IMG/VR virus record: IMGVR_UViG_3300016665_000824
Span: 1-64,000 of that record
Origin: a virus
DNA: 64,000 nt
Direction: 5' to 3' (one strand)
Below the pieces are notes generated by a model, which saw only the letters and a list, made by a program, of their open reading frames with translations, did no database searches and was not told the origin of the DNA. Below are positions 29,064-56,029 of this stretch, one piece after another. The position numbers and the translations under genes are program-made. How positions within the stretch are numbered: the stretch's first letter is position 1; each line of letters opens with the position of its first letter.

Positions 29064-29138
29064 ATCTAAGTGATTTCTTTTTTACCACCCTTTCATGGGG
29101 GTAAAACAACTACTCAGAAATGGCTTTTTTCGCGATCG

Positions 29139-31127: not shown

Positions 31128-31300
31128 GACTTAGCTAATGTTGATTTGGAGATACTAATACTCTGAGAGCTAAAAGGAATTTCAAAGGTCTTTCCATTCT
31201 GGGAGATCTGTAAGCCTGTCTGACTTTTAACAATGGATGGGGTTGCGTTCTTAATAAGCTCGGTAAACTTGGCGACAATTACATCTTCGGAAGTACTCAT
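31124..31300 (-). CDS. small ORF (58 aa) coupled between two tail genes
   Basis: not in track; start ATG overlaps stop of 819-aa gene (ATGA) and its stop overlaps GTG start of 662-aa gene (GTGA). Confidence 0.5.
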   Translation of the reverse strand: MSTSEDVIVAKFTELIKNATPSIVKSQTGLQISQNGKTFEIPFSSQSISISKSTLAKS

Positions 31301-33756: not shown

Positions 33757-34124
33757 TAGCTAACTTCACCACCTGAAATCTTGACATCGGAAAAATATGC
33801 GTAGCCATGCCCAAGAAATCGACTATCCACAGAGTCAAAGGAATAATAGTCGTCCTGAACTTTATAGCTTGATATTTCTAGTTCAATCCCAGCTTGCCCC
33901 AACTGCTTTTTTTCTGGTACTAAAGCCTCGGAGTCTACTGGGTAGCGCTTAAGCTCGGTGTCCTTGAGTATTCTGAGTTTCAATTTATTTGATAGAGATC
34001 GCTGCATTGATGACCCCAAAATTCTCTTTACAGGCTTGCATATTATGACCACTGCTTTTCTCTTTGTGTCATTCTTGCGATCGCTAAGCATTGTAGGTAA
34101 TACTGCCAACCGTCTGCCTGCCAT
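33756..34124 (-). CDS. hypothetical tail-module protein
   Basis: ORF; alternative ATG at 34091 would reduce overlap with upstream gene to 8 nt. Confidence 0.5.
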   Translation of the reverse strand: MAGRRLAVLPTMLSDRKNDTKRKAVVIICKPVKRILGSSMQRSLSNKLKLRILKDTELKRYPVDSEALVPEKKQLGQAGIELEISSYKVQDDYYSFDSVDSRFLGHGYAYFSDVKISGGEVS

Positions 34125-34935
34125 TTACAGGGGAAGGCTGTTCAACCTGAGATCCCGCAAACAATGCCATTGGCATGTATAGCGTCACATATTTTTCATC
34201 GTCGGATAAAAATTCGTAGACTTCGGGCGATCGCATGTTTAAAGCCCTCAAATAAGTACGCCCCGCAAAGTCAGAAACGAGTGTAAATTCTGGTAGTTCA
34301 TAAGTAGCGATCGCGGCGACAGGCTCCAACGTTAAATCTTGATGTAAATGTAGCATTGTTGCGCCCGTAGGGAATGGGGCTGTCGGATAGACAAAGATTG
34401 CATCGGTATCAACACCATAGGTTCCTACTACGCCGAGAGTTGGCGAGTACGGGAACGAGATGCCGTCTACGGCAATGGGGCTGGGACTAGTGAATGTACC
34501 CCATGTCGAAGTGTCGATACGATATACGTTTGCATTGTTTGTGGCGATCGCAGTGGCAGACACTGCCATATCTACTGAGATACTGACTGCTTTACTGCCT
34601 TCATATATGTGGACAGTGTTGGAATCAGTATTGAACCAAAATGAATGCGGTACAGCGAGCTTTGGTTCAACTTCATTTGAGCCAGCCACCGATACCGCTT
34701 CGACGGTGAACGGGAAGGTATGGCGGTAGTGAACACCCGAATAAATAGGGTTGACTGCGTGATAAACGACAGGTTGCAACCCGATCGCATTGGCATAAAG
34801 TACGGTGTAGTTACAACTGGCGATCGGAGCCATGCTGCGTGATGAGCCTTGCCATAACCTCATGACACTAGTACTGGTTTGTGATGGACTAGGTAGTGCG
34901 GTAGTAGGCAAGTCGTTGGACACGAGTTTAAACAT
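34084..34935 (-). CDS. putative tail structural protein (283 aa)
   Basis: ORF in tail module. Confidence 0.65.
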   Translation of the reverse strand: MFKLVSNDLPTTALPSPSQTSTSVMRLWQGSSRSMAPIASCNYTVLYANAIGLQPVVYHAVNPIYSGVHYRHTFPFTVEAVSVAGSNEVEPKLAVPHSFWFNTDSNTVHIYEGSKAVSISVDMAVSATAIATNNANVYRIDTSTWGTFTSPSPIAVDGISFPYSPTLGVVGTYGVDTDAIFVYPTAPFPTGATMLHLHQDLTLEPVAAIATYELPEFTLVSDFAGRTYLRALNMRSPEVYEFLSDDEKYVTLYMPMALFAGSQVEQPSPVNGRQTVGSITYNA

Positions 34936-34951
34936 AATTCAGATCTGAATT

Positions 34952-36403
34952 TTAATAATTCCAGTCAAGGGATTCGTAAACCAGAGTCATCGACTCGATC
35001 AGCTTCTCCGCGCCGACAAAGTATTCCTTCCCAGACGGCGTAGCGCCAATCAGGTAACAGTTTCTCAGTGTCGCGCCAAGCAAGCTAATTGTTCTCACTG
35101 CGGGGGTAGATCCTTTTGACAGGGCGGTGCGAGATGCGTTAGCTAGCGATCGCCATGCAATCACATCACTCGCTTTAACCCCTGACAACCCCAATGTTAC
35201 TGATTGGCGAGCGAGGGCTACCTGTGTTTGCACTCCATTGCGATTAAGGAGGATCTGTGAGTTATCGGCATCGGCAAAAGAGATCGAATCAACCTCATAG
35301 CCATCGAAGAAGTTTGCTGCGCCCGCACCCGTTTGATCGTAAGACCAATATTTGCTGATAAATTCAAGCTGGGTTGATGCTCGTATTTCCCGCCCGCTTA
35401 CGGTTACGGTTTCTGAAGGAGTGACATTAGTAAGAATTGCCGAGGGGATTGTGTAGCCAGCAACAGTTAACGAGATGACTTCAGGATTAAGAGCATCGGC
35501 AACATTTTCGACCTTGTGGATATAGTTGACTGCATATTCTGCGGGTGTGCCAATTACCGAGAAGGATATCCGCCGCTTAAAGGTTGGGACTTCGCGACGA
35601 CCCGAACCTGCTTGGTTAATTACAAATATCTTTGTATCAGCGCCAACATTAATATTCGCGATCGGGTAGCCATCGAAAGTCCCCTGAGAGAATGGGACAT
35701 CATAATTTCGAGTTTCATATTCAAGCACCAGTGCATCACTAATTTTGCCCAGCCCCGTAGTAATCGAAGCGGTCGGTGTTACTGATGTCAGTACTGCATT
35801 ACTTAAAGTAATACCGCCAATAGTAATGTCTTCAGTTAGTGGCGCAAGCAGGTCTGTATTCAGTAAGTTTAAAAATTTCTGATAGTCGGCTGGTGAAGTA
35901 CCTTTCAGGGTAATCGTCACCTTGCGGCGCTTAACTACGGCAGTACGAACTATGCCTGCATCGGCATACTGGACGCTAATCGAATCACCATCACCGAACT
36001 GAACCCCGTCTAACTCGACCGTATAACCTTTAAAGTGGTCGAAGGCTACACCATGCGTCCAAGTATTACTTTCGTAGAGCAGTCTTAAAGTCTCAACTAT
36101 TTGAGCTTCACCTACCTGCAAAATACCCGTTATTTCTGCGGAGACAAGGCGACATCCCGACAAACTGCGTCCACCATAGGAGATACTGTCACGGAGATCA
36201 GATCCTGCTTCTGCTGCGGACTGATAGTAAAGAACGTCGGCATCTGAGACCCCAGTAATGGTTATCCCGATGTTTGGGCGATAAGCCTTGAATTTTTGGA
36301 GCGTAGACCCGTCCTGCTTGGTGAATTCCCTAGACTCCGCCTCGCCAAACTGAATACCATCTGGCGCGATCGCAAATCCATCAAATTGTAAAAGCGAAAT
36401 CAT
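34952..36403 (-). CDS. putative tail structural protein (483 aa)
   Basis: ORF in tail module. Confidence 0.7.
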   Translation of the reverse strand: MISLLQFDGFAIAPDGIQFGEAESREFTKQDGSTLQKFKAYRPNIGITITGVSDADVLYYQSAAEAGSDLRDSISYGGRSLSGCRLVSAEITGILQVGEAQIVETLRLLYESNTWTHGVAFDHFKGYTVELDGVQFGDGDSISVQYADAGIVRTAVVKRRKVTITLKGTSPADYQKFLNLLNTDLLAPLTEDITIGGITLSNAVLTSVTPTASITTGLGKISDALVLEYETRNYDVPFSQGTFDGYPIANINVGADTKIFVINQAGSGRREVPTFKRRISFSVIGTPAEYAVNYIHKVENVADALNPEVISLTVAGYTIPSAILTNVTPSETVTVSGREIRASTQLEFISKYWSYDQTGAGAANFFDGYEVDSISFADADNSQILLNRNGVQTQVALARQSVTLGLSGVKASDVIAWRSLANASRTALSKGSTPAVRTISLLGATLRNCYLIGATPSGKEYFVGAEKLIESMTLVYESLDWNY

Positions 36404-36787: not shown

Positions 36788-37321
36788 GTGACTACACATA
36801 TGATACGAGCAATTCGTGCAATCGTCGAGCTTGATGATTTTTCTTTCGATGCGTACCAAATGCCAGACGGTGAAAAGCGCATTGGGTTTTTGGGAGCTTC
36901 CAACGTTTTAGGCTATGCTGACAACTGGTTGGGCAGGTTACATAAAGGCGATTCTCGGCAGCTAAAGGCTATACAGGGTATGGGTTATAGCGGCTTACAA
37001 ACCGAGGTCGAAATCATTCAACGGGGTAGGGAGATTAGCGCCTACGGGACTCGTGCAAATACTATCTCTCTTCGGGATTTTATTAAACTTGTAACTTATG
37101 AGGCTATCAAGAAAACAAATACCCGCGCAATTACTATTCTTGCCTCAATGGCTGAGTTTGGTTTTGAGCAAGTCATTGACATGGCTTTTGCTGGCAACCC
37201 AATGGATGAAATCCTTTCAAAGATCGTTCACTTTAGTCTATGGACTCAAGAAGAATGGGAGCAAGCTTTGGCGGATAACAGGGAAGACTTAGCTAATTTG
37301 CGACTTGGGATGTGGCGATAA
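36788..37321 (+). CDS. opposite-strand moron gene inside tail module; hypothetical protein (177 aa)
   Basis: only + strand gene within the 35-kb minus operon; bracketed by bidirectional terminator and the CCACAAA motif region; start GTG 36788 or ATG 36800. Confidence 0.6.
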   Translation: MTTHMIRAIRAIVELDDFSFDAYQMPDGEKRIGFLGASNVLGYADNWLGRLHKGDSRQLKAIQGMGYSGLQTEVEIIQRGREISAYGTRANTISLRDFIKLVTYEAIKKTNTRAITILASMAEFGFEQVIDMAFAGNPMDEILSKIVHFSLWTQEEWEQALADNREDLANLRLGMWR

Positions 37322-37351
37322 GGTAACAAGGACTTGAGTCCTTGTTACCTT
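37320..37351. terminator. bidirectional terminator hairpin (14-bp stem) between convergent moron and tape-measure genes
   Basis: AAGGTAACAAGGAC ttga GTCCTTGTTACCTT; both stop codons lie in or at the stem. Confidence 0.65.
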
Positions 37352-40300
37352 ACTCCGCTAGTAACACCCGCTACTCGTCTCAAGACATTATTAAGCGTGT
37401 CATTAACAGCCTTCTGGACATCATTGCCCACACCCGCCGCAGAACTAATGTTGCTTTGAGTATTGATAGCGATCGGGGCATTAACCGTAATATTTCCACT
37501 TGTACCCAGAGCCGCACCCGTAGGATTGCCCTGTTGCTGAGGAACAAGATCTTTACCGCCAAGACTACCGAAAGCCTGCGCCAATGCCTCCGCTCTTTGA
37601 AGTTGTCCTTCGTCAAGCAAGGCGATCGGCTTGTCGAGTTTCTTCTGGGCTTCCTCAAATGCCTTGTCGTCGATCTTCAATGTCACGGGGTTCTCGGAGA
37701 TTTGCTTCGACACACGGTTAAATTCCGCTTCCAGTCCTGCGGTTAAATCTTTAACCTTGAGATCTGGGGCAACCAACACCTTGGAGAAGCCTTCATCGAT
37801 TTGCTGAGTTAACTTGTCGAACGAAGACGCGATCGCCTGTTCTGGCTTTGCTTCCTCCGTAGGTTTGCCACCGTACTTAGCGTTAAGCTCCTCAAACGAG
37901 TTGGCTTGAGCAGGATACTTCTTGTTAAGCTCCTCAAAGCTGCCTGCCATGCCCTTGTCGGGATATTTCTTGGCTAACTCCTCAAAGCTAGTAGCGAACG
38001 GTGCGTTATCAGGCTTTGGTTCGGGTGCAGCCGTAAATACTCCGCCCTGCTCAACCTGCCCAAGCAATGCCGAGGTGGGGTTCTTAAACGAAGCACCGCG
38101 AACATTAACAGGTTGGCTTGCCGCAGCCACAGCATTACTTACATCCGTGGTAGTCAATGCTGCTGTACCCGTATTTTGAGTTAAGCGAGCAAGCTGCTCT
38201 CGTTGTAGGCGCTCTTGCAGCGCAGGATCTCTAGTTGCGCCAATAACATCGCCGATCGCCGTATTAGTTTCGCCTTGCTGTTTATTGGCAAGAGCTTGAC
38301 GATCATTCTTGTTGACAATCTCGTTAACCTTGGCTTCGTCGGCAATGAAACCCTTTTCTTGCTGCAATCCACCCAATTCAAGAAAGTTCTTCTCCTGTCC
38401 AAGCTTGGCTTGAGCAAGTTTAAGCTTCGCCTCTTCGGACTGGGGACGTAGTTTAACCTCCAACTCGGCGGCTTTGATAGCAGCATCCTGTGAGGCAATG
38501 TCCACCTTCTTCTTGGCGATCGCGATTTCATTTTCGACCTTCTTGCGTTCAAGCAATAGGTCACGCTTCTGGATTTCCCGCTCCAAGGACTCGGCTTCAA
38601 ACTTTTGCTGTTGCTTGAGGGAATTAAGCTTAAGAACGGCAAGTTTTTCCGCAAGAATCAGCTTTTTCTCTTCGAGTTCGAGATCGGCAAAGTTGCCCTG
38701 ACCACCTGCGGCACGGATGGCAGCTTGTTGGCGATCGTAGATCTTGTTGAGAGCAGCAAACTCTGACTCGCGTAATGCCACTGTAGACTGGGCAAGTTTA
38801 TTTGCCGACTCGGATAGGCGGCTTTGATTCTCAAGCCCCTTTTCTAGTGCGGTGAATAATAGTTTTTGACGTTCAAGCTTGAGGTTTTGCTGCTCAATCG
38901 TGACCGCATACTTTTGTGATTCCAAGACTAGGCGATCGCGCACTGCGGAAACTAATCCTTCAATCGCCGCGAGTTCGGCTTCAGCGAGCTGTTTGGATAG
39001 TTCAGCAACCTTGATTAGATTAGCGTTCTTAGTTTCCTTGCTAACACCAACGCCCTTCTTCTCAAGATCGGCGATCGCCTTCTGCTTTTGTTGTTCGAGT
39101 TGCAGCTCTAAAGTGATACTGCGTTTACGTTCGGCAGTTTCTTGAAGCTTAATTTCAGATTCAAGCTTAATTCCCGACTTGCGGAGTTGAGCTATCTGAG
39201 CAAGACGCTGAGTCTCGCCAACCTTTTCGGCGGCAAGGGTCTCCTTAATCTGTGCATCCAATCCCTTAACAAAGCGCTCGGAACGGGCTTTGGCTATTTT
39301 TGCCTCAGCGTCCTTCCGTTTGTTGTCGGCATCCTCTTCTAATCGCGCTTTCTGGGCGGCGGTAGCCTTAACTAGATCAAGCTCTTTTTTGTTTGCGTCA
39401 GCAATAGAGTTTTTCGCCAAGTTTTGACGTTCGGCATCTGGCTTTGCGATTGAGGAAAGTTGATCCCTCTTTGTCTGCAACGTCCGAAGTTCAGACTCTT
39501 TCTTGGCGATCGCGTCCTGTTCCGCCTTGATCTGTGCGGTGTACTCCGAGGAATTAAAAAATGGCGCGTCTTTTACGGTGTTGAATCGCTGTAATGTCTC
39601 CGCATTCCCAGCTTTCAGACTAGACAAGGCTTTTTCCCCATCTTCAATCTGCTTCGTAATTCCCTCTAGCTGTCCCTGAGTATCCTCTGACAACTTTAAG
39701 GTGCTATCCAAGGTTCCTTTCTGGCTCTGGAGGCTATTAAGTCTTGATTGCAACACAGCAAGCTCGTCCGTTACTTTCTTAACGTCCTCGGCAGCGTTAT
39801 CTCCCGCAACACCCGTACTTATAGACTCTTGGAGAGCCTTCTTCCTTGCCTCTGCATCTTTGATCTGTTGACTGGTATCGTCGATCTTTCCTTGCAAGAC
39901 AGGAGCTTGAGCTTCCCTGACCTGCCGTATCTTTGAAGGATCTCCAGTTGCAGCAGCTAACTGCGCTTCCGCCAACTCGCGATCGCGCTTAATCTGTTGT
40001 TTCTGCTCATTAGCGTTGGTCTCCAAGATCTGCTGTCTTGCTCTTAGAGCCTTTTGATCGGCTTCAGACTGGGCTTGAATCTTCTTCTCCTCTAATTGTC
40101 CAGAGAGGGCGATCGATTCAGACTCAGAGATTCGCCCCGTGGCGAGCAAAGCTTGAATCTGGGAAAGTTGAGCGTCATAAATAGCTATGCGGCGATCCGC
40201 CTCCTTTTTGTACGCGGCAGTAATCGCTTCTTGAGCCTTTATCTGTAAATCGCGATCGGCAGAGACATTCGTAGCTACTTTTTGAAACGCTCCCGCAACT

Positions 40301-43300
40301 TCGTCTGCACGGAGAATCCCTGCATCTTGAAGGGCGTTAGCCGTTTCAAGCAACTCGCCCAACTTCGCCTTAAATAGCGCAGGATCTCCCGCAGACTTGT
40401 TTAAAGCGTCAAGGGCTGCATTATATTTTGAAGTTGCCTGCTCGATCGCATTACCAATACGAGGAAGATCAATAGCCTGAATTTGCAGGTTTACCGACTT
40501 GTAGGATTCTTGAAGTTTTCTAAGGGCTTCAAGTTCTCGATCTCTTTCTGCGTCTAAACCTTCTACAGCTTGAACCTGATTAATGATTGCCTCGATATTG
40601 TTGTTTCTTTCGGCGATCTCCTTCTTCTTATTCTCGATCTGAATATCAAAACGCGCAGCACCATCTTTGTCGCTTAGCGCTTCCGCCTTGGACTTTTCCT
40701 GCTCTAATTTAATTAAATCCTCTTGGAGTTTCTTCTGAGCAGACAGTCCTATTCCTAGATCAACCCGCCGAGAAGCTGACTGATTTAAGACGTTTTTATT
40801 ATCTTGCAATCTTATTTGGACGGCTTTCTCTTCAAGATTTCCTGCGCGATCGCCTAGACCTAACTTGTCGGAAGCGCCAAACGTTACCGTTCTTAGCCCC
40901 TCTCTTGCCGCGTCACCTGTAAGAGCAAAACCTTCTGTAACGCGAGTACCAATATTGTCTCTCTCTTTTTTAACCTTCTCCCTCAACGCGTCTTCGGAGT
41001 TGGTTGGTTTGCTTTGTAATCCCCTCAACTCTTTGAGTTTTGCGAGCTGTTGATCATACAGCTTTAAAGTGGGGTCATCTTGGAGGATGCTCTTGTCTTG
41101 GATTGAGGCAACATATTTTTCGCGTTCTGAGGTTAGGTTTGCTAGCTCAGAAGCGGCATCCTTTCCTTGCGATTTGTTTAGGATCGCAACCCTTGCGTCA
41201 CTATCTTTGAGCGCATCGTTGAGTTTGTCTACATTGGCTGTAGCTGCTTTTGTTTCCTGATCGACGTAGCCAACCAAGGTTGTTATTGCGGCGAAAGCTG
41301 CGCTTAACAATAATGTAGGACCAATTTCTGCGGCGAGGGCGGCGAAGGATTTGCTGATACCTTTGACATTCTCGGAAATAAACGAGGTAGCGCCTACAGC
41401 ACCCTTTTTGAGGTTTGAATAAAGTCCACCGACACTAACGTTCGCGTTTTGAGTGAAATCAGCAAAGCTAGACTTAGCTCGCGAGCCAAAATCTTTGACA
41501 CCAGAAAGAGCATCTTGGAAACCTGTCTTTAACCCAGCACCTAAATTTTTGAGGCTTAAATCGGGGAGAGAAATAGACTTGACTTGATTGACAAACTTAT
41601 CTATAGCGATACGAGAATTAGCCAAAGAAGCGGGAATATTTAGCTCTCTAAAGAACTTATCGAGTCCCAGTCTCGCGTTTGCAAGAGAGGTAGGGACGTT
41701 GATCTGGGAAAATGCTTTTTCAACCCCGTTGCGGAGGTTTACCAGCGAGGCAGGAATGTTGATATTTGCAAAGGCGTTCCGAATGCTAGCTTTAGTATTC
41801 TCAATTTGCGCGGGGAGATTTGCAAAGATACCAGTTTTTTGACTCGAATCCTGACTGAACCTTCCCTTAATGTCAGATATAAAACTACCAATAGAGTCGC
41901 CCAAGGACTTCAAAGAAGTTTTTGTCTTTGTGGCGATCGCTCCAATATCTTCTGCGAACTGTTTTGTGAACGGGACGGGAATTGGATTGGCAATAATCTG
42001 ACTTCGGAGCGACTTGATTCTGTCGGTAGTCTCCTGATAACTTTTAAGAGCCGCCGCACGAGCTTCGGGGGTTAACGACAGATCTGTAGAGTCTTTTTGG
42101 CTCACGATCGCCTGCTGTTTTAGTCCAGAGACCTCTCGTTTAGCGGCGACAACCTGAGTAGGATTTAGAGTCGTTGACTGAACTGGCTTGCCCCCAAGTA
42201 TTTCTCGAACACTATCGTTTAGCTTCTTGATGCGCCCAAAGGTTTCGCCAATACTGGCTCCAGCACCGCTAATTCCCGTGTTAATTGTCTTAAATACATT
42301 GGAGATTGTGCCACCAAACAGCTTGGTAACAGCGATCGCGATTAGCAATCCGCCAACTACTTTTTGAAAAGGATTGGAGTTCTCGCCAAAAGTAAAGAAC
42401 GGCAATATCGTGTCTGCAACCACCTTAATTACTGGTGCTAATACCGACCCTACCGTATCCGCAAACTTACGAATAGCTGCGGTTACATCCTGAATGATTT
42501 TTTGTAGACCTTTGTTCTTCAGGATTAACTGATCGAAGAAGACAAAACCAACAAATGTTCCAGCACCCAACAAGGCTGTTGATACGGCAAAAGACCTTGC
42601 CGCAGCTCCTGCCGCTTTTAATGAATTAGAGAAGATGCTGTTTACTTTCTCGGTATTTGTAGCGACATCGGCAAACTTGCCCAAGCTCTTGGCTGCGTCC
42701 GCAATCAACGGGCTAAACGAGCCAAATAGTTGGGACTTACCAACAATGCCTGAGAAAGCTGTTAAGGCGATCGGCGCTGCCTTCGTAAATCCTTGCAGTG
42801 CGGTTCCTAGCGCAGGAAATGCTTGAGTAAGTCCAATCAGTTTTACCCCAAAGCCACCTAGTGTTGGCAAAGCGGCAGTTATAACTCCCGCGAATGGCGA
42901 GAACGCACCGAGAACTTTGCCCAACTCTTTTTGGACTAAGCCAGCAGCACCAGGGATCTTGTTTAGATTCTCCGCCAACAACAGGAATCCAGCAGACCCT
43001 CGACCGACAACCGAACTTAAATTAGCAAAAGTGTTGACAACCCCGTTAGTACGCTTGTCAAGCAGGAAGAGAACTTCTCCCAAACCTGGTACAAGATTAA
43101 ACATCAACGAGAAGCCTTTGTTTAATGCCCCGATCGCGCCCGAAAGAACTTTTGCGCCGACGGAGATGCCGATCCAAATCCCTCCAAGAGGACCTACAAC
43201 ACCTGCAATTTGTTCAAACACATTAATAGCTGGCTGAACAACAGCAAGAGTAAGGCTCATCGCATCGGAAAAAGCCTTTACTGCGCCAGCGAGAGACTTG

Positions 43301-45780
43301 AATAGGTATTCTGGAACCTGCCCAAAGATCTGGAAGAATGGCCCCGCGAGACTTTTTAGGGTCGCAATCACGTTCTTGAATACGTCAAACAGTATTCCTG
43401 CGAGACTCCCTACTTGAGCAGCGATCGCGTCTTTATTCTTTGAGAAATACTGGTAAAACCCGTCAAGTTCCGCTACTAAAGGTGCGAGGAATTTCTCCCC
43501 AGCGAGTCTGCCGATCTCATCAACTAGCTCTTGAATATTGCTAACAATCCCACCCACGGACTGAGCAGCTAGCTTGTTTCCAGACTTAAATGCTTCTAAT
43601 CGACCTAAAAGCTCTTTGACGAAGGTTCCTTGAGACTTCCACTTAGCCACCATCTCATTGTTGAGGTTAAGCGATTTGGCAAGAGCTGAGTTTTGGTCAA
43701 TAGTTCCCGAAGTTATACTAACAACCTCTTGACGGGCTTGATATAAAGGTATGCCAAGCGTTCCGAGTGCGGCGGCGAACGAGGTTGTAATATTAGCAGC
43801 GTCATTCAAGGACGCGCCAATGTTGCTTGCCTGCCCAGCAACGATCTGAAAAACCCCGACAAGATCTTTACTGGTTACGCCGACCAGCTCTAACGAGTCT
43901 TTACGAATTTTATCGATCGCCCCTTCAACCGCAGGGCCAACCGCCTTGATCGCTTGAGTTGGATCTGATACGCGATCGCCATTAACTACGATTCTATTGG
44001 TTGCCGCTAAGCTCGCCTGAGTAGAGAGTAGTTGCTCTTGGAGCCTGATGTTTTGCCCAATCAACAGATCGAAAGGGCCGTTTTGTACAAATCCTTGGAG
44101 TGCCTGCAATCCCAATCCCAAGAAAGCAAGTCTCTGAGATACTTCAAAGATCGCGTTGGTTGCCTTGCCAGCACCTTCGCTAATTAGATTGAATACTTCT
44201 AGTGGTTCCGTCGCCCCCGCCACTGGAGCAACCACTGCGGCGGCAATATCTACAGGTTCTTGCAGCTTCGGGGCTATCTCTTGAGTCTTTTGAAACCCCT
44301 TAACGATAACATCATCAACACTATCGATGACAGTACCGACTTCGGCAAGGATTGTTGATCTCAGTCCATCAACAAAATTCTTACCTGCGATCGCGCCAGT
44401 ATCTTTTAAAAGCGAACTAAATGTTCCGCCAAAAAACTCGTCAATCTTGGTTGCAAGTTTTTGCAGTGAGCCATCCCCGCTTCCGATAGAATCAATCGCC
44501 GCGCCCAACCCTCCGTCAATAGCATCGACAGCTTTTAGGGCTAAATTCCTGAGAGGCGCAAGGATGCTAGTATCTTCTACGCTAAACAAGCTATTGAGAG
44601 CCTGTCCAACGCCTCCCTTTTGAGTCTCTATTAAAGGGCGGAGGATGGCAAAAGCGGATCTTAAATCCTCTGGAATTGCTTTTTCTAGTCCATTAAATAA
44701 CTGTCCAGACAACGCATTTCCAAAATCTTGCAACTCATTAGAGGCAACAATCGACCCCAAATTTGCCACCCCGATCTTGTTGGCAATCAGTTTTGCTAGT
44801 GGTGGTAGTGGCAACTTATCTACAAGCTGAGGGATTCGCCCCGCTAGGCGGTTGATCAGCTCAGATACAGAGCCGCCTAACTGTTCGTCAAGAATTTTAA
44901 ATTGATCGGTCGCCTCAGATCTGCTGCCGACGATTGCCCTGCCGACCGATCCTCCTAAAGCGCTAGATAAGCGCCCTACAACTCTTTGTCCGTCCTCAAC
45001 GTTTGGCGCGATTGCGTTAACGGCAAAAGCTTTAGCAGCACCCGATACCGACCCACCAGCCAACTGCTTCGACACTTCCGACAGCAATCCAGTTTTTGCC
45101 GCAGTCCGAAATGAGTTGGCGACAATTGAGGTTAAATCCGCCCCGAAAGCTTGGTTAACAATACCTTTTAAAGCGTCGGGGAGTCCTCCCCCAACAACGC
45201 CCGAAATGAGTGAGTCGGCGATCGCGTTATCTAGCGTTCCAGTAAAAGCCTCAACTCCCACTCCAAGCTTGCGCTGAATTTCTTGATTTAGCTTTGAAGC
45301 CCTAACATTTGCTTCTAACGCTTTACCGAAACTGTTTGCAGAATCGCTAAGTATCTGCGTAATTCTCTTGCCGTTATCCGAAAATATTGCAGACTGAGCT
45401 TGCTCTGCCGACTGCTTAGATAAGAATCCTCCTCCGACATCTTTTCCTGCAGAGGTAATCCCCTTGATTACCTTTGAGAGCGGAGCTAGTTTTGAAACTG
45501 CACTGTCGGCGACATTCGAGATCTGTTCTAAAAATATTTTGCCCGACTGCGTATCTAGTACATCTCGAACCGACTGAATTGCGTCTCTCAGCCCTCCAAA
45601 CGTGCCAATCGCGGTTGCCCCTACCGTGCTGATCGTTCCGCCAAGGGCTTGTACAGATCCCTTTGTTACGTCCGCAACAACACCAACACTTTTTAGACCA
45701 GCAGCTATCTCCGAAACTTGTTTGCTTGCTTGATCTTTCGCCTGTATTAAGATCTCAACAATATTGGTTTGCGGAGCCAT
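37345..45780 (-). CDS. tape measure protein (2811 aa)
   Basis: giant ORF with Gly/Ala-rich hydrophobic N-terminal half and ~1000-aa coiled-coil (Q/E/K/A-rich) half, upstream of baseplate/fibre genes. Confidence 0.75.
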   Translation of the reverse strand: MAPQTNIVEILIQAKDQASKQVSEIAAGLKSVGVVADVTKGSVQALGGTISTVGATAIGTFGGLRDAIQSVRDVLDTQSGKIFLEQISNVADSAVSKLAPLSKVIKGITSAGKDVGGGFLSKQSAEQAQSAIFSDNGKRITQILSDSANSFGKALEANVRASKLNQEIQRKLGVGVEAFTGTLDNAIADSLISGVVGGGLPDALKGIVNQAFGADLTSIVANSFRTAAKTGLLSEVSKQLAGGSVSGAAKAFAVNAIAPNVEDGQRVVGRLSSALGGSVGRAIVGSRSEATDQFKILDEQLGGSVSELINRLAGRIPQLVDKLPLPPLAKLIANKIGVANLGSIVASNELQDFGNALSGQLFNGLEKAIPEDLRSAFAILRPLIETQKGGVGQALNSLFSVEDTSILAPLRNLALKAVDAIDGGLGAAIDSIGSGDGSLQKLATKIDEFFGGTFSSLLKDTGAIAGKNFVDGLRSTILAEVGTVIDSVDDVIVKGFQKTQEIAPKLQEPVDIAAAVVAPVAGATEPLEVFNLISEGAGKATNAIFEVSQRLAFLGLGLQALQGFVQNGPFDLLIGQNIRLQEQLLSTQASLAATNRIVVNGDRVSDPTQAIKAVGPAVEGAIDKIRKDSLELVGVTSKDLVGVFQIVAGQASNIGASLNDAANITTSFAAALGTLGIPLYQARQEVVSITSGTIDQNSALAKSLNLNNEMVAKWKSQGTFVKELLGRLEAFKSGNKLAAQSVGGIVSNIQELVDEIGRLAGEKFLAPLVAELDGFYQYFSKNKDAIAAQVGSLAGILFDVFKNVIATLKSLAGPFFQIFGQVPEYLFKSLAGAVKAFSDAMSLTLAVVQPAINVFEQIAGVVGPLGGIWIGISVGAKVLSGAIGALNKGFSLMFNLVPGLGEVLFLLDKRTNGVVNTFANLSSVVGRGSAGFLLLAENLNKIPGAAGLVQKELGKVLGAFSPFAGVITAALPTLGGFGVKLIGLTQAFPALGTALQGFTKAAPIALTAFSGIVGKSQLFGSFSPLIADAAKSLGKFADVATNTEKVNSIFSNSLKAAGAAARSFAVSTALLGAGTFVGFVFFDQLILKNKGLQKIIQDVTAAIRKFADTVGSVLAPVIKVVADTILPFFTFGENSNPFQKVVGGLLIAIAVTKLFGGTISNVFKTINTGISGAGASIGETFGRIKKLNDSVREILGGKPVQSTTLNPTQVVAAKREVSGLKQQAIVSQKDSTDLSLTPEARAAALKSYQETTDRIKSLRSQIIANPIPVPFTKQFAEDIGAIATKTKTSLKSLGDSIGSFISDIKGRFSQDSSQKTGIFANLPAQIENTKASIRNAFANINIPASLVNLRNGVEKAFSQINVPTSLANARLGLDKFFRELNIPASLANSRIAIDKFVNQVKSISLPDLSLKNLGAGLKTGFQDALSGVKDFGSRAKSSFADFTQNANVSVGGLYSNLKKGAVGATSFISENVKGISKSFAALAAEIGPTLLLSAAFAAITTLVGYVDQETKAATANVDKLNDALKDSDARVAILNKSQGKDAASELANLTSEREKYVASIQDKSILQDDPTLKLYDQQLAKLKELRGLQSKPTNSEDALREKVKKERDNIGTRVTEGFALTGDAAREGLRTVTFGASDKLGLGDRAGNLEEKAVQIRLQDNKNVLNQSASRRVDLGIGLSAQKKLQEDLIKLEQEKSKAEALSDKDGAARFDIQIENKKKEIAERNNNIEAIINQVQAVEGLDAERDRELEALRKLQESYKSVNLQIQAIDLPRIGNAIEQATSKYNAALDALNKSAGDPALFKAKLGELLETANALQDAGILRADEVAGAFQKVATNVSADRDLQIKAQEAITAAYKKEADRRIAIYDAQLSQIQALLATGRISESESIALSGQLEEKKIQAQSEADQKALRARQQILETNANEQKQQIKRDRELAEAQLAAATGDPSKIRQVREAQAPVLQGKIDDTSQQIKDAEARKKALQESISTGVAGDNAAEDVKKVTDELAVLQSRLNSLQSQKGTLDSTLKLSEDTQGQLEGITKQIEDGEKALSSLKAGNAETLQRFNTVKDAPFFNSSEYTAQIKAEQDAIAKKESELRTLQTKRDQLSSIAKPDAERQNLAKNSIADANKKELDLVKATAAQKARLEEDADNKRKDAEAKIAKARSERFVKGLDAQIKETLAAEKVGETQRLAQIAQLRKSGIKLESEIKLQETAERKRSITLELQLEQQKQKAIADLEKKGVGVSKETKNANLIKVAELSKQLAEAELAAIEGLVSAVRDRLVLESQKYAVTIEQQNLKLERQKLLFTALEKGLENQSRLSESANKLAQSTVALRESEFAALNKIYDRQQAAIRAAGGQGNFADLELEEKKLILAEKLAVLKLNSLKQQQKFEAESLEREIQKRDLLLERKKVENEIAIAKKKVDIASQDAAIKAAELEVKLRPQSEEAKLKLAQAKLGQEKNFLELGGLQQEKGFIADEAKVNEIVNKNDRQALANKQQGETNTAIGDVIGATRDPALQERLQREQLARLTQNTGTAALTTTDVSNAVAAASQPVNVRGASFKNPTSALLGQVEQGGVFTAAPEPKPDNAPFATSFEELAKKYPDKGMAGSFEELNKKYPAQANSFEELNAKYGGKPTEEAKPEQAIASSFDKLTQQIDEGFSKVLVAPDLKVKDLTAGLEAEFNRVSKQISENPVTLKIDDKAFEEAQKKLDKPIALLDEGQLQRAEALAQAFGSLGGKDLVPQQQGNPTGAALGTSGNITVNAPIAINTQSNISSAAGVGNDVQKAVNDTLNNVLRRVAGVTSGVR
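37840..37995 (-). repeat. three tandem ~45-nt repeats encoding SFEEL-x-KKYP inside the tape measure gene
   Basis: GCTCCTCAAA recurs three times on + strand; protein repeats SFEELAKKYP / SFEELNKKYP / SFEELNAKYG. Confidence 0.6.
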
Positions 45781-46220: not shown

Positions 46221-48428
46221 TTATCCCTTACCGTTACTGGGTTTTGAGGTTGGCTTATAGACATCATAGAGAGAGCCAATCTTCCCATTCTTCTTAGAGG
46301 CGTATAAAATCATAGGATCTTGACCCTCCATAGGGGCGAAGCCAGCCTTTTCGTAAATACTCTTACGCTTACTGCCAGCCCCATCTTTGTCATAAGCCCC
46401 AGCCGTAAGAATAGAGTTGTCGGGCATAGCCTCAATATGCTTGGCAAACGAAGCCTTTGTCATGCGAATAATTTGTTTTGCTCCAGAAGCCCCAAGGTTG
46501 GCGGACTCCTCCTTGTTATTGGATTCGTTTATGGCGAAAGAAACCTCGTAGACACTTCCTCCAGAAGCTTCTTTTTTGTACACAGTCGTAAAGGTGTACA
46601 AGGCTGGTCCAACAGAAGCTACAGTATAAACCCCACCATTCTTTCTATCCCTGTAAGTGAAGCTGTTCGATTCTTTGTCTACGTCAATAAGATCCCGACC
46701 CTTAATAGACTGAGTTTTTCTTGCCAAGGCGAGCTTGGTCATTCCGATAAGACCTTTTGCTTTGTCTTTAAGGGCTGGGCTTAAATCAGATCTATCCAAA
46801 GCCCGATCCGCCACTTTCCCCAAGGCTAAACTCTGCTTGTAGGTCATAATCAGTGCAACATCTGAAATCTTGTAATCTTTTGTCGCTTGAATATTGCCAA
46901 TACCGACGACTCCAGCTACCACTGAACCTACGCTACCTGCGACGATCGCTGCCTTGCGAGCGCCTTTGTTAGAAAGTAGTCCGATAGCCTTGTCTACTGG
47001 TGTCTCCTTTTTTTGTAGGGGCGGCTGAGGTATAGAGAATTCCGTTTTTGGTTGTTGTGACTCGCTTGGATTACCCCCTTTTGTTGACTTGCCTCGGTTT
47101 GCAGCGATCGCCGCCGCACCACCAACTAAGGCAGCAGCACCTAAACCAGTACCAACATTTCGGGCTAAATTATTCTCGCTTTTTTTCTCGCCGATCTTTT
47201 GACAGGCGTTTCCACGCTGGACATAGCCTTCCTTGCATTTGAGCGTTCTACCCTTGTCGTAGCGCAAAGATACCGACATACGCCCCTCAAGATAAGACGA
47301 ATCATTCTGTAGATCGGCATCAGTCCGCCTTGTAGTTGCACTTTGATAGATGTTGCTAAATAGGTAAAGAACTTCGATATCCTCGTCATCCTCAACCGAG
47401 TCTCCCCTCTTCTCATTTATCTGGGATATCTTCTCGTTTGTTTTAGCCTCTACGTTTTCTCTAAAGTCCTTGAGTCCACCCCTCTTTGTTGCGAGGGTGA
47501 GAGCAGTGCCAAGAAGAATGGTGTCTCGCTCAGCTCTTCTTAGAACCTTCTGAAAAGGAGATAAGGTAGATTCATTCTTACCACCCGAAATCGACTTGGA
47601 CACATATTCTCCCGCAATGCGTTGAATTTCAGGATCTTTAGACCACTCGGAAGCTACGGATGAGCCATATTTCAAGGCTGCGCTACGAGCTTTTGGATTG
47701 GTCAGCACCTCTTTTGCGATAACCATAGAGGCTTTTTTCTTTGCTTCAACTAAGTTTGTTTCGTTACTAAATTCAGGAGCGACAAAAGTTCCGACAGCGC
47801 TGGCTACTTCTGGCTTTTCCGCAAGAATACTCAAAATTGCGGTAGCTTTATCTCTGTAAGCAGGATTGTTTAAATCCTTGATGCGCCTTTTAATCAATAC
47901 TTGAGATAAATTGTCTCCCTCACTTTTGATTTCACCTTTCTTCTCTTTTGACAAAAGGTTTGCCACTACAGAGACAGTCTTGTTCACCGCCACCGAAGCC
48001 GCCTTTTTCGTTGCGCCCAATATAATCTGATTCTTTTTCTGAGAGATCGCAGCCCCAGTTACCGCAACAACGGTACTGGCTCCAGCCGCCAAATACCTCT
48101 TCGCCAGAGGAAGTCCTTTCTCCCCTTTTTTGGAGGCAGTAGAACTCGAAAGAAGGGCAACAGGGGCGGGATCTACGGCTCTGTTTTCTTGCGGAGATCT
48201 TCTCGATGCGATCGCCGCCACACCGCCGACTAAAGCCGCAGCCCCTAGCCCTGCGCTAATATTTCGAGCTAAATCACCCCCAGCCTTCTTCTCGCCAATC
48301 TTCTGGCAAGCAGCCCCGCGCTGTACATAACCTTGCTTACACTTAATCTTCTTCCCCGCATCTTGACGTAGAGCGACAGACACCTGCCCCTCAAGATAAG
48401 CTAAGTCACTGGCTAAATCTCTCGTCAT
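46221..48428 (-). CDS. large modular protein with duplicated Cys-motif + Gly/Ala-zipper module (735 aa); function unknown
   Basis: two copies of YLEG..SV.LR.D.G...KCK.GYVQRG.ACQKIGEKK ... GLGAAALVGG.AAIA. Confidence 0.8.
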   Translation of the reverse strand: MTRDLASDLAYLEGQVSVALRQDAGKKIKCKQGYVQRGAACQKIGEKKAGGDLARNISAGLGAAALVGGVAAIASRRSPQENRAVDPAPVALLSSSTASKKGEKGLPLAKRYLAAGASTVVAVTGAAISQKKNQIILGATKKAASVAVNKTVSVVANLLSKEKKGEIKSEGDNLSQVLIKRRIKDLNNPAYRDKATAILSILAEKPEVASAVGTFVAPEFSNETNLVEAKKKASMVIAKEVLTNPKARSAALKYGSSVASEWSKDPEIQRIAGEYVSKSISGGKNESTLSPFQKVLRRAERDTILLGTALTLATKRGGLKDFRENVEAKTNEKISQINEKRGDSVEDDEDIEVLYLFSNIYQSATTRRTDADLQNDSSYLEGRMSVSLRYDKGRTLKCKEGYVQRGNACQKIGEKKSENNLARNVGTGLGAAALVGGAAAIAANRGKSTKGGNPSESQQPKTEFSIPQPPLQKKETPVDKAIGLLSNKGARKAAIVAGSVGSVVAGVVGIGNIQATKDYKISDVALIMTYKQSLALGKVADRALDRSDLSPALKDKAKGLIGMTKLALARKTQSIKGRDLIDVDKESNSFTYRDRKNGGVYTVASVGPALYTFTTVYKKEASGGSVYEVSFAINESNNKEESANLGASGAKQIIRMTKASFAKHIEAMPDNSILTAGAYDKDGAGSKRKSIYEKAGFAPMEGQDPMILYASKKNGKIGSLYDVYKPTSKPSNGKG
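47080..47330 (-). repeat. intragenic duplicated module, copy B (approximate bounds)
   Basis: DNA and protein similarity to 48190-48428. Confidence 0.5.
48190..48428 (-). repeat. intragenic duplicated module, copy A (approximate bounds)
   Basis: see 47080-47330. Confidence 0.5.
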
Positions 48429-48763
48429 TTCTTGCTCCGCTTTTTAATCATCTTGCTAATAGCTTCAGCTCCATTAGCCACTTTAGACTCAACCTTGCCC
48501 GTAGCTCGACCCGTGTTAAAGATTGCCTTACCAGTATTAAAATCCTCTTTCAATCCTGTTTTACCTTTATCGGCAAGTTTGGCGATCGCCACAGCAGTCA
48601 GTCCCGCGATCACGCCACGACCAACTGCGCCAGCAACACTCTTAATCGCTGTTTTAAGTTTGCCTTTACCACAAGTAGCGCCTTGAGGGATGCAGTAGGT
48701 TTTACCATCTTCTCCTTGGCAGGGTTTGCCGCGATCGCACGTTGTGTCTAGTCTAATCTTCAT
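48425..48763 (-). CDS. small Cys-knot + Gly-zipper membrane-helix protein (112 aa)
   Basis: TTCDRGKPCQGEDGKTYCIPQGATCG then AIKSVAGAVGRGVIAGLTAVAIA; ATGA coupling to downstream gene. Confidence 0.7.
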   Translation of the reverse strand: MKIRLDTTCDRGKPCQGEDGKTYCIPQGATCGKGKLKTAIKSVAGAVGRGVIAGLTAVAIAKLADKGKTGLKEDFNTGKAIFNTGRATGKVESKVANGAEAISKMIKKRSKK

Positions 48764-53083: not shown

Positions 53084-53085
53084 GA

Positions 53086-54968: not shown

Positions 54969-55388
54969 CTAGAAGGCAATGAATGGTGGCACGGCAGGGA
55001 TACTGTCACCCATAAAACCGCCCGTTAGAACCAATTCCTTAAGCATTAGAAATTGCTGCCCATAGGTGGTTCGAGATAGATACACATCGGAGAATCTGCC
55101 ATTACCGTTTGCGGGGGTGGAGGTTCTCCGATTAGACATAGACTCACCAGTGTCGATCGCCTTAGCATTTGACACAGTGACAGTACCTTCCTCGGTATTG
55201 AGCGCCAAATAGTGAGCAGTCAGCAACATTACCGCCATTTCCGCATTGTCACCCCACTCTTCAATCGAGCAAAACCGCGAATAGAAATTCAGCCAGTTCT
55301 GGATAAAGATCAGCGACTCCCCAACAAAGTCAGAGAATGCTGCCTCGGAAGTGAAAGTATCTGCGGAAACGACGGGGTATGTTGCCAT
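54969..55388 (-). CDS. putative head-tail connector/adaptor-like protein (139 aa)
   Basis: size and position; ...MAVMLLTAHYLAL segment resembles phage head-tail adaptor families (weak). Confidence 0.55.
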   Translation of the reverse strand: MATYPVVSADTFTSEAAFSDFVGESLIFIQNWLNFYSRFCSIEEWGDNAEMAVMLLTAHYLALNTEEGTVTVSNAKAIDTGESMSNRRTSTPANGNGRFSDVYLSRTTYGQQFLMLKELVLTGGFMGDSIPAVPPFIAF

Positions 55389-55392
55389 GTAT

Positions 55393-56019: not shown

Positions 56020-56029
56020 GATTTCTTCT

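What the first reader, a model, noticed from the sequence alone, without database searches (positions are those of the whole stretch)
37345..45780. Exceptionally long tape-measure-like protein (2811 aa)
A single 8.4-kb ORF with a Gly/Ala-rich hydrophobic half and a ~1000-aa coiled-coil half sits where a tape measure protein belongs. Tape measure length scales with tail length at roughly 0.15 nm per residue, which would predict a tail of about 400-500 nm if the whole protein acts as a ruler. Alternatively part of it is an ejected internal protein. It also contains three tandem SFEEL-x-KKYP repeats near the C-terminus (about 37840-37995).
Basis: partly seen in the sequence, partly recalled or inferred. 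Interest (0 to 1): 0.6.

Follow-up and report, generated by a model that had tools for sequence, protein, structure and literature searches.

The report
Giant cyanophage tail tape measure protein
This 2,811-residue gene is very probably the tail tape measure protein of an uncultured long-tailed cyanobacterial virus; it is huge by general phage standards but ordinary for its own family, where such proteins run from about 2,000 to 4,200 residues.

Summary
The ORF is real: 37345..45780, minus strand, 2,811 aa. Identical copies occur in two independent metagenome assemblies. Its closest named relatives are the annotated tape measure proteins (TMPs) of isolated cyanobacterial siphophages. These are Aphanizomenon phage CL131 (2,131 aa, found in virions by mass spectrometry, 361 nm tail), Nodularia phages (3,282-3,404 aa, 795 nm tail) and PaV-LD (1,584 aa).

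An exhaustive search found 1,117 cluster representatives of the same family. Among 139 of the best-matching representatives, those that look full-length, the median is 2,058 aa and the maximum 4,212 aa. The window's protein sits at the 80th percentile.

Its layout is a Gly/Ala/Ser-rich N-terminus, a conserved all-alpha core (aa ~525-975), Gly-rich hydrophobic helices (aa 858-1163 and 1479-1506), an ~890-1,000-aa charged alpha-helical stretch, and a low-confidence C-terminal tail with 3-4 SFEEL short-helix motifs. No enzymatic domain was found, and there is no Cys or His.

A block homologous to CL131 virion proteins follows downstream. No recognisable tail tube or chaperone genes lie upstream.

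Verdict: a genuine TMP and a new member of a known kind. The predicted tail is roughly 420-660 nm. It is not exceptional within its lineage. Strict heptad coiled-coil character is only patchy.

The parts
37345..45780 (-). Complete ORF for the 2,811-aa tape measure protein, stop codon included
   Evidence: The identical protein is found on two assemblies. Its N-terminus aligns from residue 1-6 with homologues P0003 and P0008, so the start codon is right.
44221..45780 (-). N-terminal Gly/Ala/Ser-rich region (aa 1-520). The first ~120 aa are conserved in about 20 relatives.
   Evidence: Composition. There is a weak PHROG 305 (tail length tape measure protein) match at aa 16-493, E=3.3e-4.
42856..44205 (-). 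Conserved all-alpha family core (aa 526-975). It is the signature of the family (LLIGQN..., SLELVGVTS, QARQEI.SIL, SNIQE).
   Evidence: It is 38-43% identical to the TMPs of CL131, PaV-LD and the Nodularia phages. Nearly all of the 153 relatives scored have an HSP over aa 600-800. The AlphaFold model is all-helical, with confident pLDDT of 60-82 only at aa ~580-740. There is no Pfam, PDB sequence or PDB fold match.
42292..43209 (-). Gly-rich hydrophobic, transmembrane-like helices (aa 858-1163). This is the presumed membrane-inserting, channel-forming block.
   Evidence: Kyte-Doolittle 19-aa windows reach >=1.6 at aa 858-907, 956-984, 1063-1087 and 1110-1163. This block has the strongest 3.5-residue periodicity in the protein. 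The function is inferred by analogy with other TMPs.
41581..41760 (-). Three tandem 20-aa repeats, xINIPASLxNxRxxxxKFxxx (aa 1341-1400)
   Evidence: The repeats are absent from homologues P0002, P0003, P0007 and P0008.
41263..41346 (-). Last hydrophobic, transmembrane-like segment (aa 1479-1506)
38173..41262 (-). Charged alpha-helical half (aa ~1507-2536). This is the main length-variable ruler segment.
   Evidence: DEKR content is 28-39%. AlphaFold gives aa 1649-2536 as ~92% helix. Across the family, total length correlates with the length of this kind of region, r=0.82. Heptad signal is patchy.
40171..40488 (-). Conserved small helical sub-domain inside the charged half (aa ~1765-1870; DLPRIG...GDPALFK...KAQEAIT)
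   Evidence: There is a coverage bump and a family consensus. AlphaFold shows four shorter helices here.
37810..37989 (-). Array of SFEEL-x-KKY short-helix motifs. Three good copies start at aa 2598, 2614 and 2628, and a degenerate SFDKL copy starts at aa 2653. Pro/Gly-rich linkers separate them.
   Evidence: Each copy is a 7-8-residue helix in the AlphaFold model. The motif is about 5-fold enriched over shuffles. It is positionally conserved 150-300 aa from the C-terminus in P0002, P0007 and the distant P0123.
37348..37809 (-). C-terminal tail (aa 2658-2811), made of short helices at low model confidence. It is the presumed tail-tip-proximal end.
   Evidence: It is conserved in P0002, P0003 and P0007. 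The orientation is inferred from other TMPs and was not tested.
37322..37349 (.). Perfect 12-bp hairpin (GGTAACAAGGAC-TCAA-GTCCTTGTTACC) that overlaps the TMP stop codon. It lies between the TMP and the convergent 177-aa ORF.
   Evidence: Read directly. The terminator scan did not call it because there is no T-run.
25737..36403 (-). Downstream virion (presumed tail-tip/baseplate/fibre) gene block encoding proteins of 483, 283, 122, 819, 58, 662 and 1,108 aa
   Evidence: The 819-aa protein matches CL131 gp032 and a PaV-LD protein. The gene order mirrors CL131 gp030-gp035; gp030, gp031, gp032 and gp034 were seen in the fetched part of the virion mass-spectrometry table.

Best explanation
This is the tail tape measure protein of an uncultured siphovirus, related to Aphanizomenon phage CL131, Planktothrix phage PaV-LD and the Nodularia Ravarandavirus phages. 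Its host is most likely a cyanobacterium.

The proposed mechanism rests on the established behaviour of TMPs such as lambda gpH and T5 pb2, and is inferred rather than shown here. A few copies, probably three, lie stretched inside the tail tube lumen, with the C-terminal tail anchored in the tip complex. Tube subunits polymerise around the protein until its N-terminal end is reached, so the protein's length fixes the tail length. The ~900-1,000-aa charged helical half is the part that varies most in the family and so does most of the tuning. The whole chain is needed to span the tail.

Using 0.15 nm per residue, or the ratios of the two measured relatives (0.169 and 0.234 nm per residue), the tail should be about 420-660 nm long. 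On infection the protein is expelled through the tip. The Gly-rich hydrophobic helices (aa 858-1163 and 1479-1506) would then insert into the envelope to line the DNA conduit. Unlike some relatives, this protein has no wall-degrading domain, so that activity must come from another virion protein.
For: Shown here:
- The ORF is intact and recurs in independent assemblies.
- It is homologous to the annotated TMPs of isolated siphophages: CL131 gp049 (37% identity over 773 aligned residues, E=3.5e-137), PaV-LD ORF088R and Nodularia gp180/2AV2_176.
- CL131 gp049 is a virion protein by LC-MS/MS, with 84 peptides.
- TMP length ranks with tail length in the two measured relatives: 2,131 aa with 361 nm, and 3,404 aa with 795 nm (PMC6293099 Table 1).
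- The family is large (1,117 representatives). Its best 91 representatives are dominated by 2,000-4,200-aa proteins. Total length tracks the length of the charged helical region (r=0.82).
- A distant member, P0005, lies in the order Neck1, weak major-tail-protein candidate, three small ORFs, TMP, 156 aa, 1,992 aa. It carries an endolysin-like insert, as many TMPs do.
- The protein is all-alpha by AlphaFold and has transmembrane-like hydrophobic helices.
- Foldseek against BFVD returns almost only TMPs and minor tail proteins after the relatives.
- A family profile hits PDB 9d93 'Tapemeasure protein' at E=7e-10 and the diffocin TMP 8v3w at E=3e-5.
- There is a weak PHROG 305 TMP hit.
- The downstream genes match CL131 virion proteins.
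- No enzymatic domain was found, and there is no Cys or His.
Against: - No curated TMP model matches the protein, and Pfam matches none of the 57 relatives scanned (Pfam; NCBIfam, window proteins only).
- The PDB and BFVD similarities have low TM-scores and lie in low-complexity helical sequence, so they are weakly specific.
- No tail tube gene and no G/GT-type chaperone pair can be recognised upstream. Unusual basic Cys-motif proteins lie there instead.
- PaV-LD, which has a 1,584-aa homologue, was described as tailless or as a podovirus.
- The 'TMP' label on the relatives is itself an annotation, not a genetic demonstration.
- The 2AV2 ratio of 0.234 nm per residue exceeds what a fully helical ruler can give.
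- Heptad regularity in the charged half is weak.
Confidence: 0.82

Rival explanations
1. The protein is a composite. Only the C-terminal charged helical half (~1,000 aa, giving a tail of ~150-200 nm) measures the tail. The N-terminal ~1,500 aa, comprising the conserved alpha core and the hydrophobic block, is a separate cargo or translocon module. It would be carried in the tail or head and ejected, in the way the N-terminal RNA polymerase rides on the 5,002-aa TMP of Thermus phage P23-45.
For: The P23-45 precedent (PMC10770324). The core and hydrophobic block form the conserved unit of the family, whereas the flanks vary. Part of the core folds as a compact helical domain rather than one long helix.
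Against: In CL131 and 2AV2 the measured tails (361 and 795 nm) are already longer than the full-length proteins would span as alpha-helix (320 and 510 nm). No part of the protein can therefore be spared. No enzymatic or nucleic-acid-binding domain was found in the N-terminal half. Family length correlates with both the N-terminal (r=0.83) and C-terminal (r=0.89) extensions.
Confidence: 0.1
2. The protein is not a ruler at all. It is a giant internal or ejection (pilot) protein of a short-tailed or tailless virion, as the morphology reported for PaV-LD would suggest.
For: PaV-LD carries a 1,584-aa homologue and was described as tailless or podovirus-like. No curated TMP model matches. No tube or chaperone genes are recognisable next to the gene, and the neighbours look like packaged proteins.
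Against: The two relatives with the longest homologues are siphoviruses with very long tails. A distant member sits in a canonical siphovirus tail module. The structural neighbours in BFVD are TMPs. My own judgement, not tested here, is that the PaV-LD morphology more probably reflects lost tails.
Confidence: 0.05
3. The ORF is an assembly or annotation artefact that fuses two or more genes.
For: None beyond its unusual size.
Against: The identical 2,811-aa product occurs in two independent assemblies. Homologues of 2,470-2,917 aa are collinear from end to end. Hundreds of family members have similar length.
Confidence: 0.01

Closest known systems
Aphanizomenon phage vB_AphaS-CL131 gp049, tape measure protein (2,131 aa; MG209611)
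   Same: It is the best named relative, 37% identical over 773 aligned residues spanning window aa 389-1151, with a weaker match at aa 2068-2527. It has the same core, hydrophobic block and charged-helix order. It is a virion protein by mass spectrometry and comes from a siphovirus with a 361 nm tail. The neighbouring virion genes are also shared: gp032 by tblastn and gp048 with the 872-aa protein, while the rest of the gp030-035 block corresponds by gene order and size only.
   Different: It is 680 aa shorter. In CL131 the tip-gene block lies about 20 kb away, upstream of the head genes, and the TMP ends the structural module. No SFEEL array was looked for or reported there.
Nodularia phage TMPs (vB_NpeS-2AV2 2AV2_176, 3,404 aa; kac65v151 gp180, 3,282 aa; genus Ravarandavirus)
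   Same: The conserved core is shared at 38-40% identity, and a long charged helical region follows it. These are siphoviruses with a 795 nm tail.
   Different: They are longer and carry a ~1,640-aa extension before the core, compared with ~540 aa here. The gene stands apart from the other structural genes, next to RNR and cobalamin adenosyltransferase genes.
Planktothrix phage PaV-LD ORF088R, 'tail tape measure protein' (1,584 aa)
   Same: It has the highest core identity of the named relatives, 42.7% over aa 525-949. It also shares head and tip genes.
   Different: It is much shorter, and the virion was reported as tailless or as a podovirus.
Thermus phage P23-45 / P74-26 gp96, giant TMP (5,002 aa)
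   Same: It is a giant TMP with transmembrane segments, from a siphovirus whose tail is nearly 1 um long (PMC10770324, PMC10034513). It shows that TMPs well above 2,811 aa are already known.
   Different: Homology was not tested and none was detected. P23-45 carries an N-terminal RNA polymerase and a metallopeptidase domain. This protein has no detectable enzymatic domain and contains no His or Cys.
Canonical TMPs (lambda gpH, T5 pb2, TP901-1 TMP; Pfam PF06791, PF10145; TIGR01760)
   Same: The protein is long and alpha-helical, has hydrophobic segments, and lies ahead of the tip genes. BFVD neighbours annotated 'lambda GpH N-terminal' and 'Caudovirus tape measure N-terminal' were returned.
   Different: No significant sequence match to any of these models was found. 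The protein is 2-4 times longer. No recognisable chaperone pair lies upstream.

Membership tests
Phage tail tape measure protein (functional class) | Homology to proteins established or annotated as TMPs in isolated long-tailed phages | tested here: met
   Local tblastn gave E=3.5e-137 for CL131 gp049, 1.2e-95 for PaV-LD ORF088R and 8e-77 for the Nodularia gp180/2AV2_176 proteins; the collection search is. CL131 gp049 is present in virions.
Phage tail tape measure protein (functional class) | Match to a curated TMP sequence model (Pfam PF10145/PF06791/PF20155, TIGR01760/TIGR02675, or a PHROG TMP family) | tested here: not met
   Pfam and NCBIfam gave no hit. Fifty-seven relatives gave no Pfam TMP hit. 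PHROG 305 matched only at E=3.3e-4, and PHROG TMP families matched the core at E=0.03-0.6.
Phage tail tape measure protein (functional class) | Long, predominantly alpha-helical protein with hydrophobic, transmembrane-like segments and no large globular enzyme fold | tested here: met
   The AlphaFold models are all-helical. Five hydrophobic clusters were found. There was no PDB fold or sequence hit to an enzyme.
Phage tail tape measure protein (functional class) | Gene placed between the tail tube/assembly-chaperone genes and the distal-tail/baseplate genes | tested here: inconclusive
   The downstream block matches CL131 virion proteins gp030-035. Upstream there is no recognisable tube or G/GT pair. 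The canonical layout is seen for the distant member P0005.
Phage tail tape measure protein (functional class) | Protein length proportional to tail length | not testable with these tools
   No virions exist for this metagenomic contig. The relatives give 0.169 and 0.234 nm per residue. Family length variation is concentrated in the charged helical region.
Phage tail tape measure protein (functional class) | Coiled-coil (heptad) character of the ruler segment | tested here: inconclusive
   The helix is confirmed. With a crude home-made score, only 0-38% of the 42-aa windows in each 200-aa stretch of aa 1600-2600 exceed z=2 for heptad phasing. No dedicated predictor was available.
CL131 / PaV-LD / Ravarandavirus-type giant TMP family (not in Pfam) | Conserved ~450-aa alpha core (LLIGQN...SLELVGVTS...QARQEI.SIL...SNIQE), followed by a Gly-rich hydrophobic block and then a long charged helical region, with near absence of Cys and His | tested here: met
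   The order of regions is shown. Cys is ~0% and His is <=0.2% in most of the roughly 47 relatives listed, with exceptions of 0.3-0.8%.

The most novel reading that the evidence does not exclude
In this cyanophage lineage the tape measure may not follow the classical alpha-helical ruler rule. The measured relatives give 0.17-0.23 nm of tail per residue, which is more than a helix can span. The canonical tube and chaperone genes are replaced upstream by a set of basic proteins carrying Cys motifs and hydrophobic stretches. The conserved alpha core plus the Gly-rich hydrophobic block could be a dedicated envelope-crossing translocon, delivered through a half-micrometre tail, with tail length set by a partly extended TMP or by more than one protein.
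Probability: 0.12. Interest if true: 0.6.

Novelty: new member of a known kind. Interest (0 to 1): 0.3.

Why it matters
The protein predicts a tail of about 0.4-0.7 um for an uncultured, probably cyanobacterial, virus, which would place it among the longer phage tails. More useful than this single gene is the context found around it. There is a large family (over 1,100 clusters at 50% identity) of 2,000-4,200-aa tape measure proteins. It is associated mainly with cyanobacteria, no Pfam or NCBIfam model detected the members tested, and it has a sharply conserved core of unknown role and a freely length-variable charged helical segment. That family would be a good natural series for testing how tail length is encoded at the extreme end, and for writing a profile that lets annotation pipelines recognise these genes. 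As a discovery in itself the finding is ordinary, because longer homologues from isolated phages are already in GenBank.

Tried and rejected
- **Enzymatic-fusion hypothesis.** Pfam, NCBIfam, PHROGs (whole protein and five pieces), PDB sequence searches (whole protein and three pieces) and a PDB fold search found no enzyme domain. The protein has no Cys or His. Rejected.
- **Link to Pfam TMP families through shorter or mid-size relatives.** None of the 35 plus 22 proteins scanned hit a TMP family. This led nowhere.
- **The search for homologous proteins.** It returned only 5 and 4 hits because of its word index. The exhaustive representative search was needed to see the family.
- **Foldseek against afdb50.** The library was not available.
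- **First genome-contig scan with a single protein.** It found nothing. The alignment-based scan gave 9 loci.
- **Tandem Repeats Finder.** It found no DNA-level repeat under the SFEEL or NIPASL peptide repeats, so these repeats are old and diverged.
- **Self-BLAST.** It found no large internal duplications.
- **Promoter and terminator scan of 36300-46400.** The counts were below the shuffle expectation.
- **G/GT-like frameshifted chaperone pair directly upstream.** None is evident. The adjacent ORF encodes a ~115-aa protein with an N-terminal hydrophobic helix.
- **Homologues in the window of the neck, tube-candidate and chaperone-position genes of the compact relative L008.** Only the major capsid protein matched.
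- **JAB/RadC-like and hydrolase-like motifs in the upstream 571- and 872-aa proteins.** I saw these by eye, but Pfam did not support them even at E<=5.

Full report
**Observation.** The window has one uninterrupted ORF on the minus strand, 37345..45780, with an ATG start, encoding 2,811 aa. The same protein was called on a 134,398-bp ENA metagenome contig and on a Logan assembly of a different run. Homologues of 2,470-2,917 aa align with it from end to end. The ORF is therefore neither a chance reading frame nor an assembly fusion. The N-terminus aligns from residues 1-6 with relatives, which fixes the start codon.

**Anatomy.** The composition is Ala 13%, Leu 11%, Lys 8% and Gly 8%, with no Cys, no His and two Trp. 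The parts, from N- to C-terminus, are as follows.
- aa 1-520 form a Gly/Ala/Ser-rich region. Its first ~120 residues are conserved in about 20 relatives. It gives a weak PHROG 305 (tape measure) match, E=3.3e-4.
- aa ~525-975 form the family's conserved core. It is all-alpha in an AlphaFold model, but confidently folded (pLDDT 60-82) only at aa ~580-740.
- aa 858-1163 and 1479-1506 are Gly-rich hydrophobic, transmembrane-like helices. They show the strongest 3.5-residue periodicity in the protein.
- aa 1341-1400 contain three 20-aa NIPASL-type repeats that are private to this protein.
- aa ~1507-2536 form a charged region (DEKR 28-39%). AlphaFold predicts aa 1649-2536 as ~92% helix, in helices of up to 126 residues, interrupted by a conserved small helical sub-domain at aa ~1765-1870.
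- The last ~275 residues are modelled with low confidence. They hold three SFEEL-x-KKY motifs (starting at aa 2598, 2614 and 2628; window 37989..37873) and a degenerate fourth copy. Each motif is a short helix between Pro/Gly linkers.
- The motif array is enriched about 5-fold over shuffles. It is kept at the same distance from the C-terminus in P0002, P0007 and the distant P0123, so it is probably a binding motif with an unknown partner.
- My crude heptad tests find only patchy coiled-coil phasing in the charged half. 'Alpha-helical and charged' is shown. 'Coiled coil' is inferred.

**What it is related to.** tblastn against 50,697 phage records hits only cyanophages.
- Aphanizomenon phage CL131 gp049, annotated 'tape measure protein', is 2,131 aa.
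- Planktothrix phage PaV-LD ORF088R is 1,584 aa.
- The Nodularia phage proteins are gp180 (3,282 aa) and 2AV2_176 (3,404 aa).
- In a local re-run, CL131 matches at 37% identity over 773 aligned residues (E=3.5e-137) and again in the helical half.
- CL131 gp049 was found in purified virions by LC-MS/MS (84 peptides; PMC6293099 Table S5).
- CL131 has a 361 nm tail and 2AV2 a 795 nm tail (PMC6293099 Table 1).

An exhaustive phmmer search with aa 389-1151 against 1.84 billion cluster representatives found 1,117 relatives at E<=1e-3 and 350 at E<=1e-30. Of the best 91, 67 are >=2,000 aa and 23 are >=2,811 aa. Among 139 representatives that look full-length, the median is 2,058 aa and the maximum 4,212 aa. 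This puts the window's protein at the 80th percentile. Near-absence of Cys and His holds for most of the relatives listed. Total length correlates with the amount of charged helical sequence (r=0.82). Seven of the nine relatives found in genome assemblies are in cyanobacterial bins.

**Is the family really a TMP family?** Curated models say nothing. Pfam and NCBIfam give no hit for the protein, and Pfam gives no TMP hit for 57 relatives. Four independent lines of support exist.
1. Virion localisation and long tails in the isolated relatives, as above.
2. Synteny in a compact, distant member. P0005 (2,019 aa) lies after the portal, MuF, protease, cement, major capsid, adaptor and Neck1 genes. 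A 202-aa weak major-tail-protein candidate and three small ORFs precede it, and a 156-aa and a ~1,992-aa protein follow it. It carries an endolysin-like insert at aa 1188-1358 (PHROG 90, E=1.6e-36), a known habit of TMPs.
3. Foldseek of both AlphaFold models against BFVD. After the three direct relatives, it returns almost exclusively tape measure and minor tail proteins. The TM-scores are low, as expected for long flexible helices.
4. A family profile hits PDB chain 9d93 'Tapemeasure protein' (E=7e-10) and the diffocin TMP 8v3w (E=3e-5). These matches lie in low-complexity helical sequence that also attracts designed coiled coils and spike HR1 regions.

A PDB fold search with the core model found nothing at E<=0.001.

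**Neighbourhood.**
- Downstream lies a perfect 12-bp hairpin that overlaps the stop codon (37322-37349), followed by a convergent 177-aa ORF.
- Beyond these are minus-strand genes encoding proteins of 483, 283, 122, 819, 58, 662 and 1,108 aa. The 819-aa protein matches CL131 gp032, and the gene order mirrors CL131 gp030-gp035. Four of these (gp030, gp031, gp032 and gp034) appear in the part of the mass-spectrometry table I fetched. The TMP is therefore followed by the presumed tail-tip module, as expected.
- Upstream the picture is not canonical. After an E217/Pam3-type head module (DUF2213 protease, cement protein, PF09950 capsid protein, DUF4054 adaptor) come five basic proteins of 468, 872, 571, 112 and 735 aa. 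They carry short Cys-rich motifs followed by Ala/Gly hydrophobic stretches. The 872-aa protein is related to the abundant CL131 virion protein gp048.
- Next to the TMP is a ~115-aa protein with an N-terminal hydrophobic helix. I could not recognise a tube protein or a G/GT chaperone pair.

**Mechanism (inferred).** By homology and by analogy with lambda gpH and T5 pb2, a few copies lie extended in the tube lumen. The C-terminal tail, with its SFEEL array, would sit at the tip. Tube polymerisation would stop at the N-terminal end.
- The whole chain must count as ruler. In CL131 and 2AV2 the tails are as long as, or longer than, the full proteins would span as alpha-helix (320 versus 361 nm, and 510 versus 795 nm).
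- For 2,811 aa, 0.15 nm per residue gives 422 nm, the CL131 ratio gives 476 nm and the 2AV2 ratio gives 657 nm.
- The hydrophobic Gly-rich helices would form the membrane conduit after ejection. The protein has no muralytic domain.
- The discrepancy between 0.169 and 0.234 nm per residue, and the 'tailless' description of PaV-LD, remain unexplained.

**Comparison and novelty.** The protein is a new, unnamed member of an already sampled kind. Longer homologues from isolated phages (3,282-3,404 aa) are in GenBank, and a 5,002-aa TMP is described for Thermus phage P23-45, whose close relative P74-26 is reported with a tail of nearly 1 um (PMC10770324, PMC10034513). Against typical TMPs, whose group medians in one survey ran from about 650 to 1,870 aa (PMC13585406), it is very long. 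Within its family it is unremarkable.

The residual points of interest are four:
- the family's size and its invisibility to curated models;
- the unknown role of the conserved core;
- the SFEEL motif array;
- the non-canonical upstream genes.

**Verdict.** 'Exceptional' is not supported in the family context. Interest is 0.3.

Noticed in passing
window 46221..54492 (-): ORFs 53086..54492, 50465..53083, 48753..50468, 48425..48763, 46221..48428: There are five basic proteins here where tube and chaperone genes would be expected. Each has short Cys-rich motifs (for example CKQGYVQRGxACQKIG, CDRGKPCxGEDGxTYCIPxxATCG, CGSGTKPCGKICIPQEKNCAG) followed by an Ala/Gly-rich hydrophobic stretch. The 571-, 112- and 735-aa proteins share these segments with each other. 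The 872-aa protein is related to CL131 gp048, an abundant 1,811-aa virion protein. They may be packaged or ejected proteins.
   Followed up: partly
window 48753..50468 (-) and 50465..53083 (-): By eye, the 571-aa protein has 'THNHPD...SAFSPADL', which resembles a JAB/RadC metal-binding motif. The 872-aa protein has 'VVSHGSGGNVV', which resembles a hydrolase nucleophile elbow. Pfam gave no support even at E<=5.
   Followed up: partly
window 37322..37349: A perfect 12-bp stem with a 4-nt loop (GGTAACAAGGAC TCAA GTCCTTGTTACC) overlaps the TMP stop codon. It sits exactly between the TMP and the convergent ORF 36788..37321. It is probably a bidirectional terminator, although it lacks a T-run.
   Followed up: no
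window 36788..37321 (+): A 177-aa ORF (PHROG 32599, unknown function) lies in the opposite orientation, wedged between the TMP and the tail-tip genes. A 170-aa gene occupies the same place and orientation in the related contig L007 (18571-19083).
   Followed up: no
window 34952..36403 (-) and 24943..25341 (-): The 483-aa protein immediately after the TMP consists of three tandem copies of a ~140-aa domain (PHROG 35535, unknown function). A single-domain 132-aa paralogue lies about 10 kb downstream. It has no homologue in the phage collection and no PDB match. It is a candidate distal-tail or tube component.
   Followed up: partly
window 54969..59827 (-): The head module is of the E217/Pam3 type: DUF2213 protease, Phage_cement-like protein, PF09950 major capsid protein and DUF4054 adaptor. 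The capsid ORF listed from TTG 57728 (399 aa) overlaps the preceding gene. Homology begins around aa 94-106, so the true protein is probably about 300 aa, like the CL131 capsid protein (310 aa).
   Followed up: partly
L007 557..877 (relative contig SRR21892049_6184): In the closest relative's contig, a 106-aa protein with an Acb2/Tad1 hairpin domain (an anti-CBASS/anti-Thoeris sponge family) sits between the head-tail adaptor gene and the 128-aa gene. The window has no gene at that position.
   Followed up: no
window 41581..41760 (-), aa 1341-1400 of the TMP: Three tandem 20-aa repeats (INIPASLVNLRNGVEKAFSQ, INVPTSLANARLGLDKFFRE, LNIPASLANSRIAIDKFVNQ) are absent from the closest homologues. 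This may be a recent local expansion of the ruler.
   Followed up: partly
L001/L010 (CL131), L002/L006 (Nodularia phages): The position of the TMP gene is not conserved among relatives. In CL131 the tip-gene block lies upstream of the head genes and the TMP ends the module, next to purM and a tRNA. In the Nodularia phages the TMP stands alone among RNR, cobalamin adenosyltransferase and DNA polymerase III beta genes.
   Followed up: partly
window 62870..63595 (-): A 241-aa protein is Bro-N/Rha-type and antirepressor-like (PHROG 2657/373/518). CL131 and PaV-LD also encode such proteins near their structural modules.
   Followed up: no
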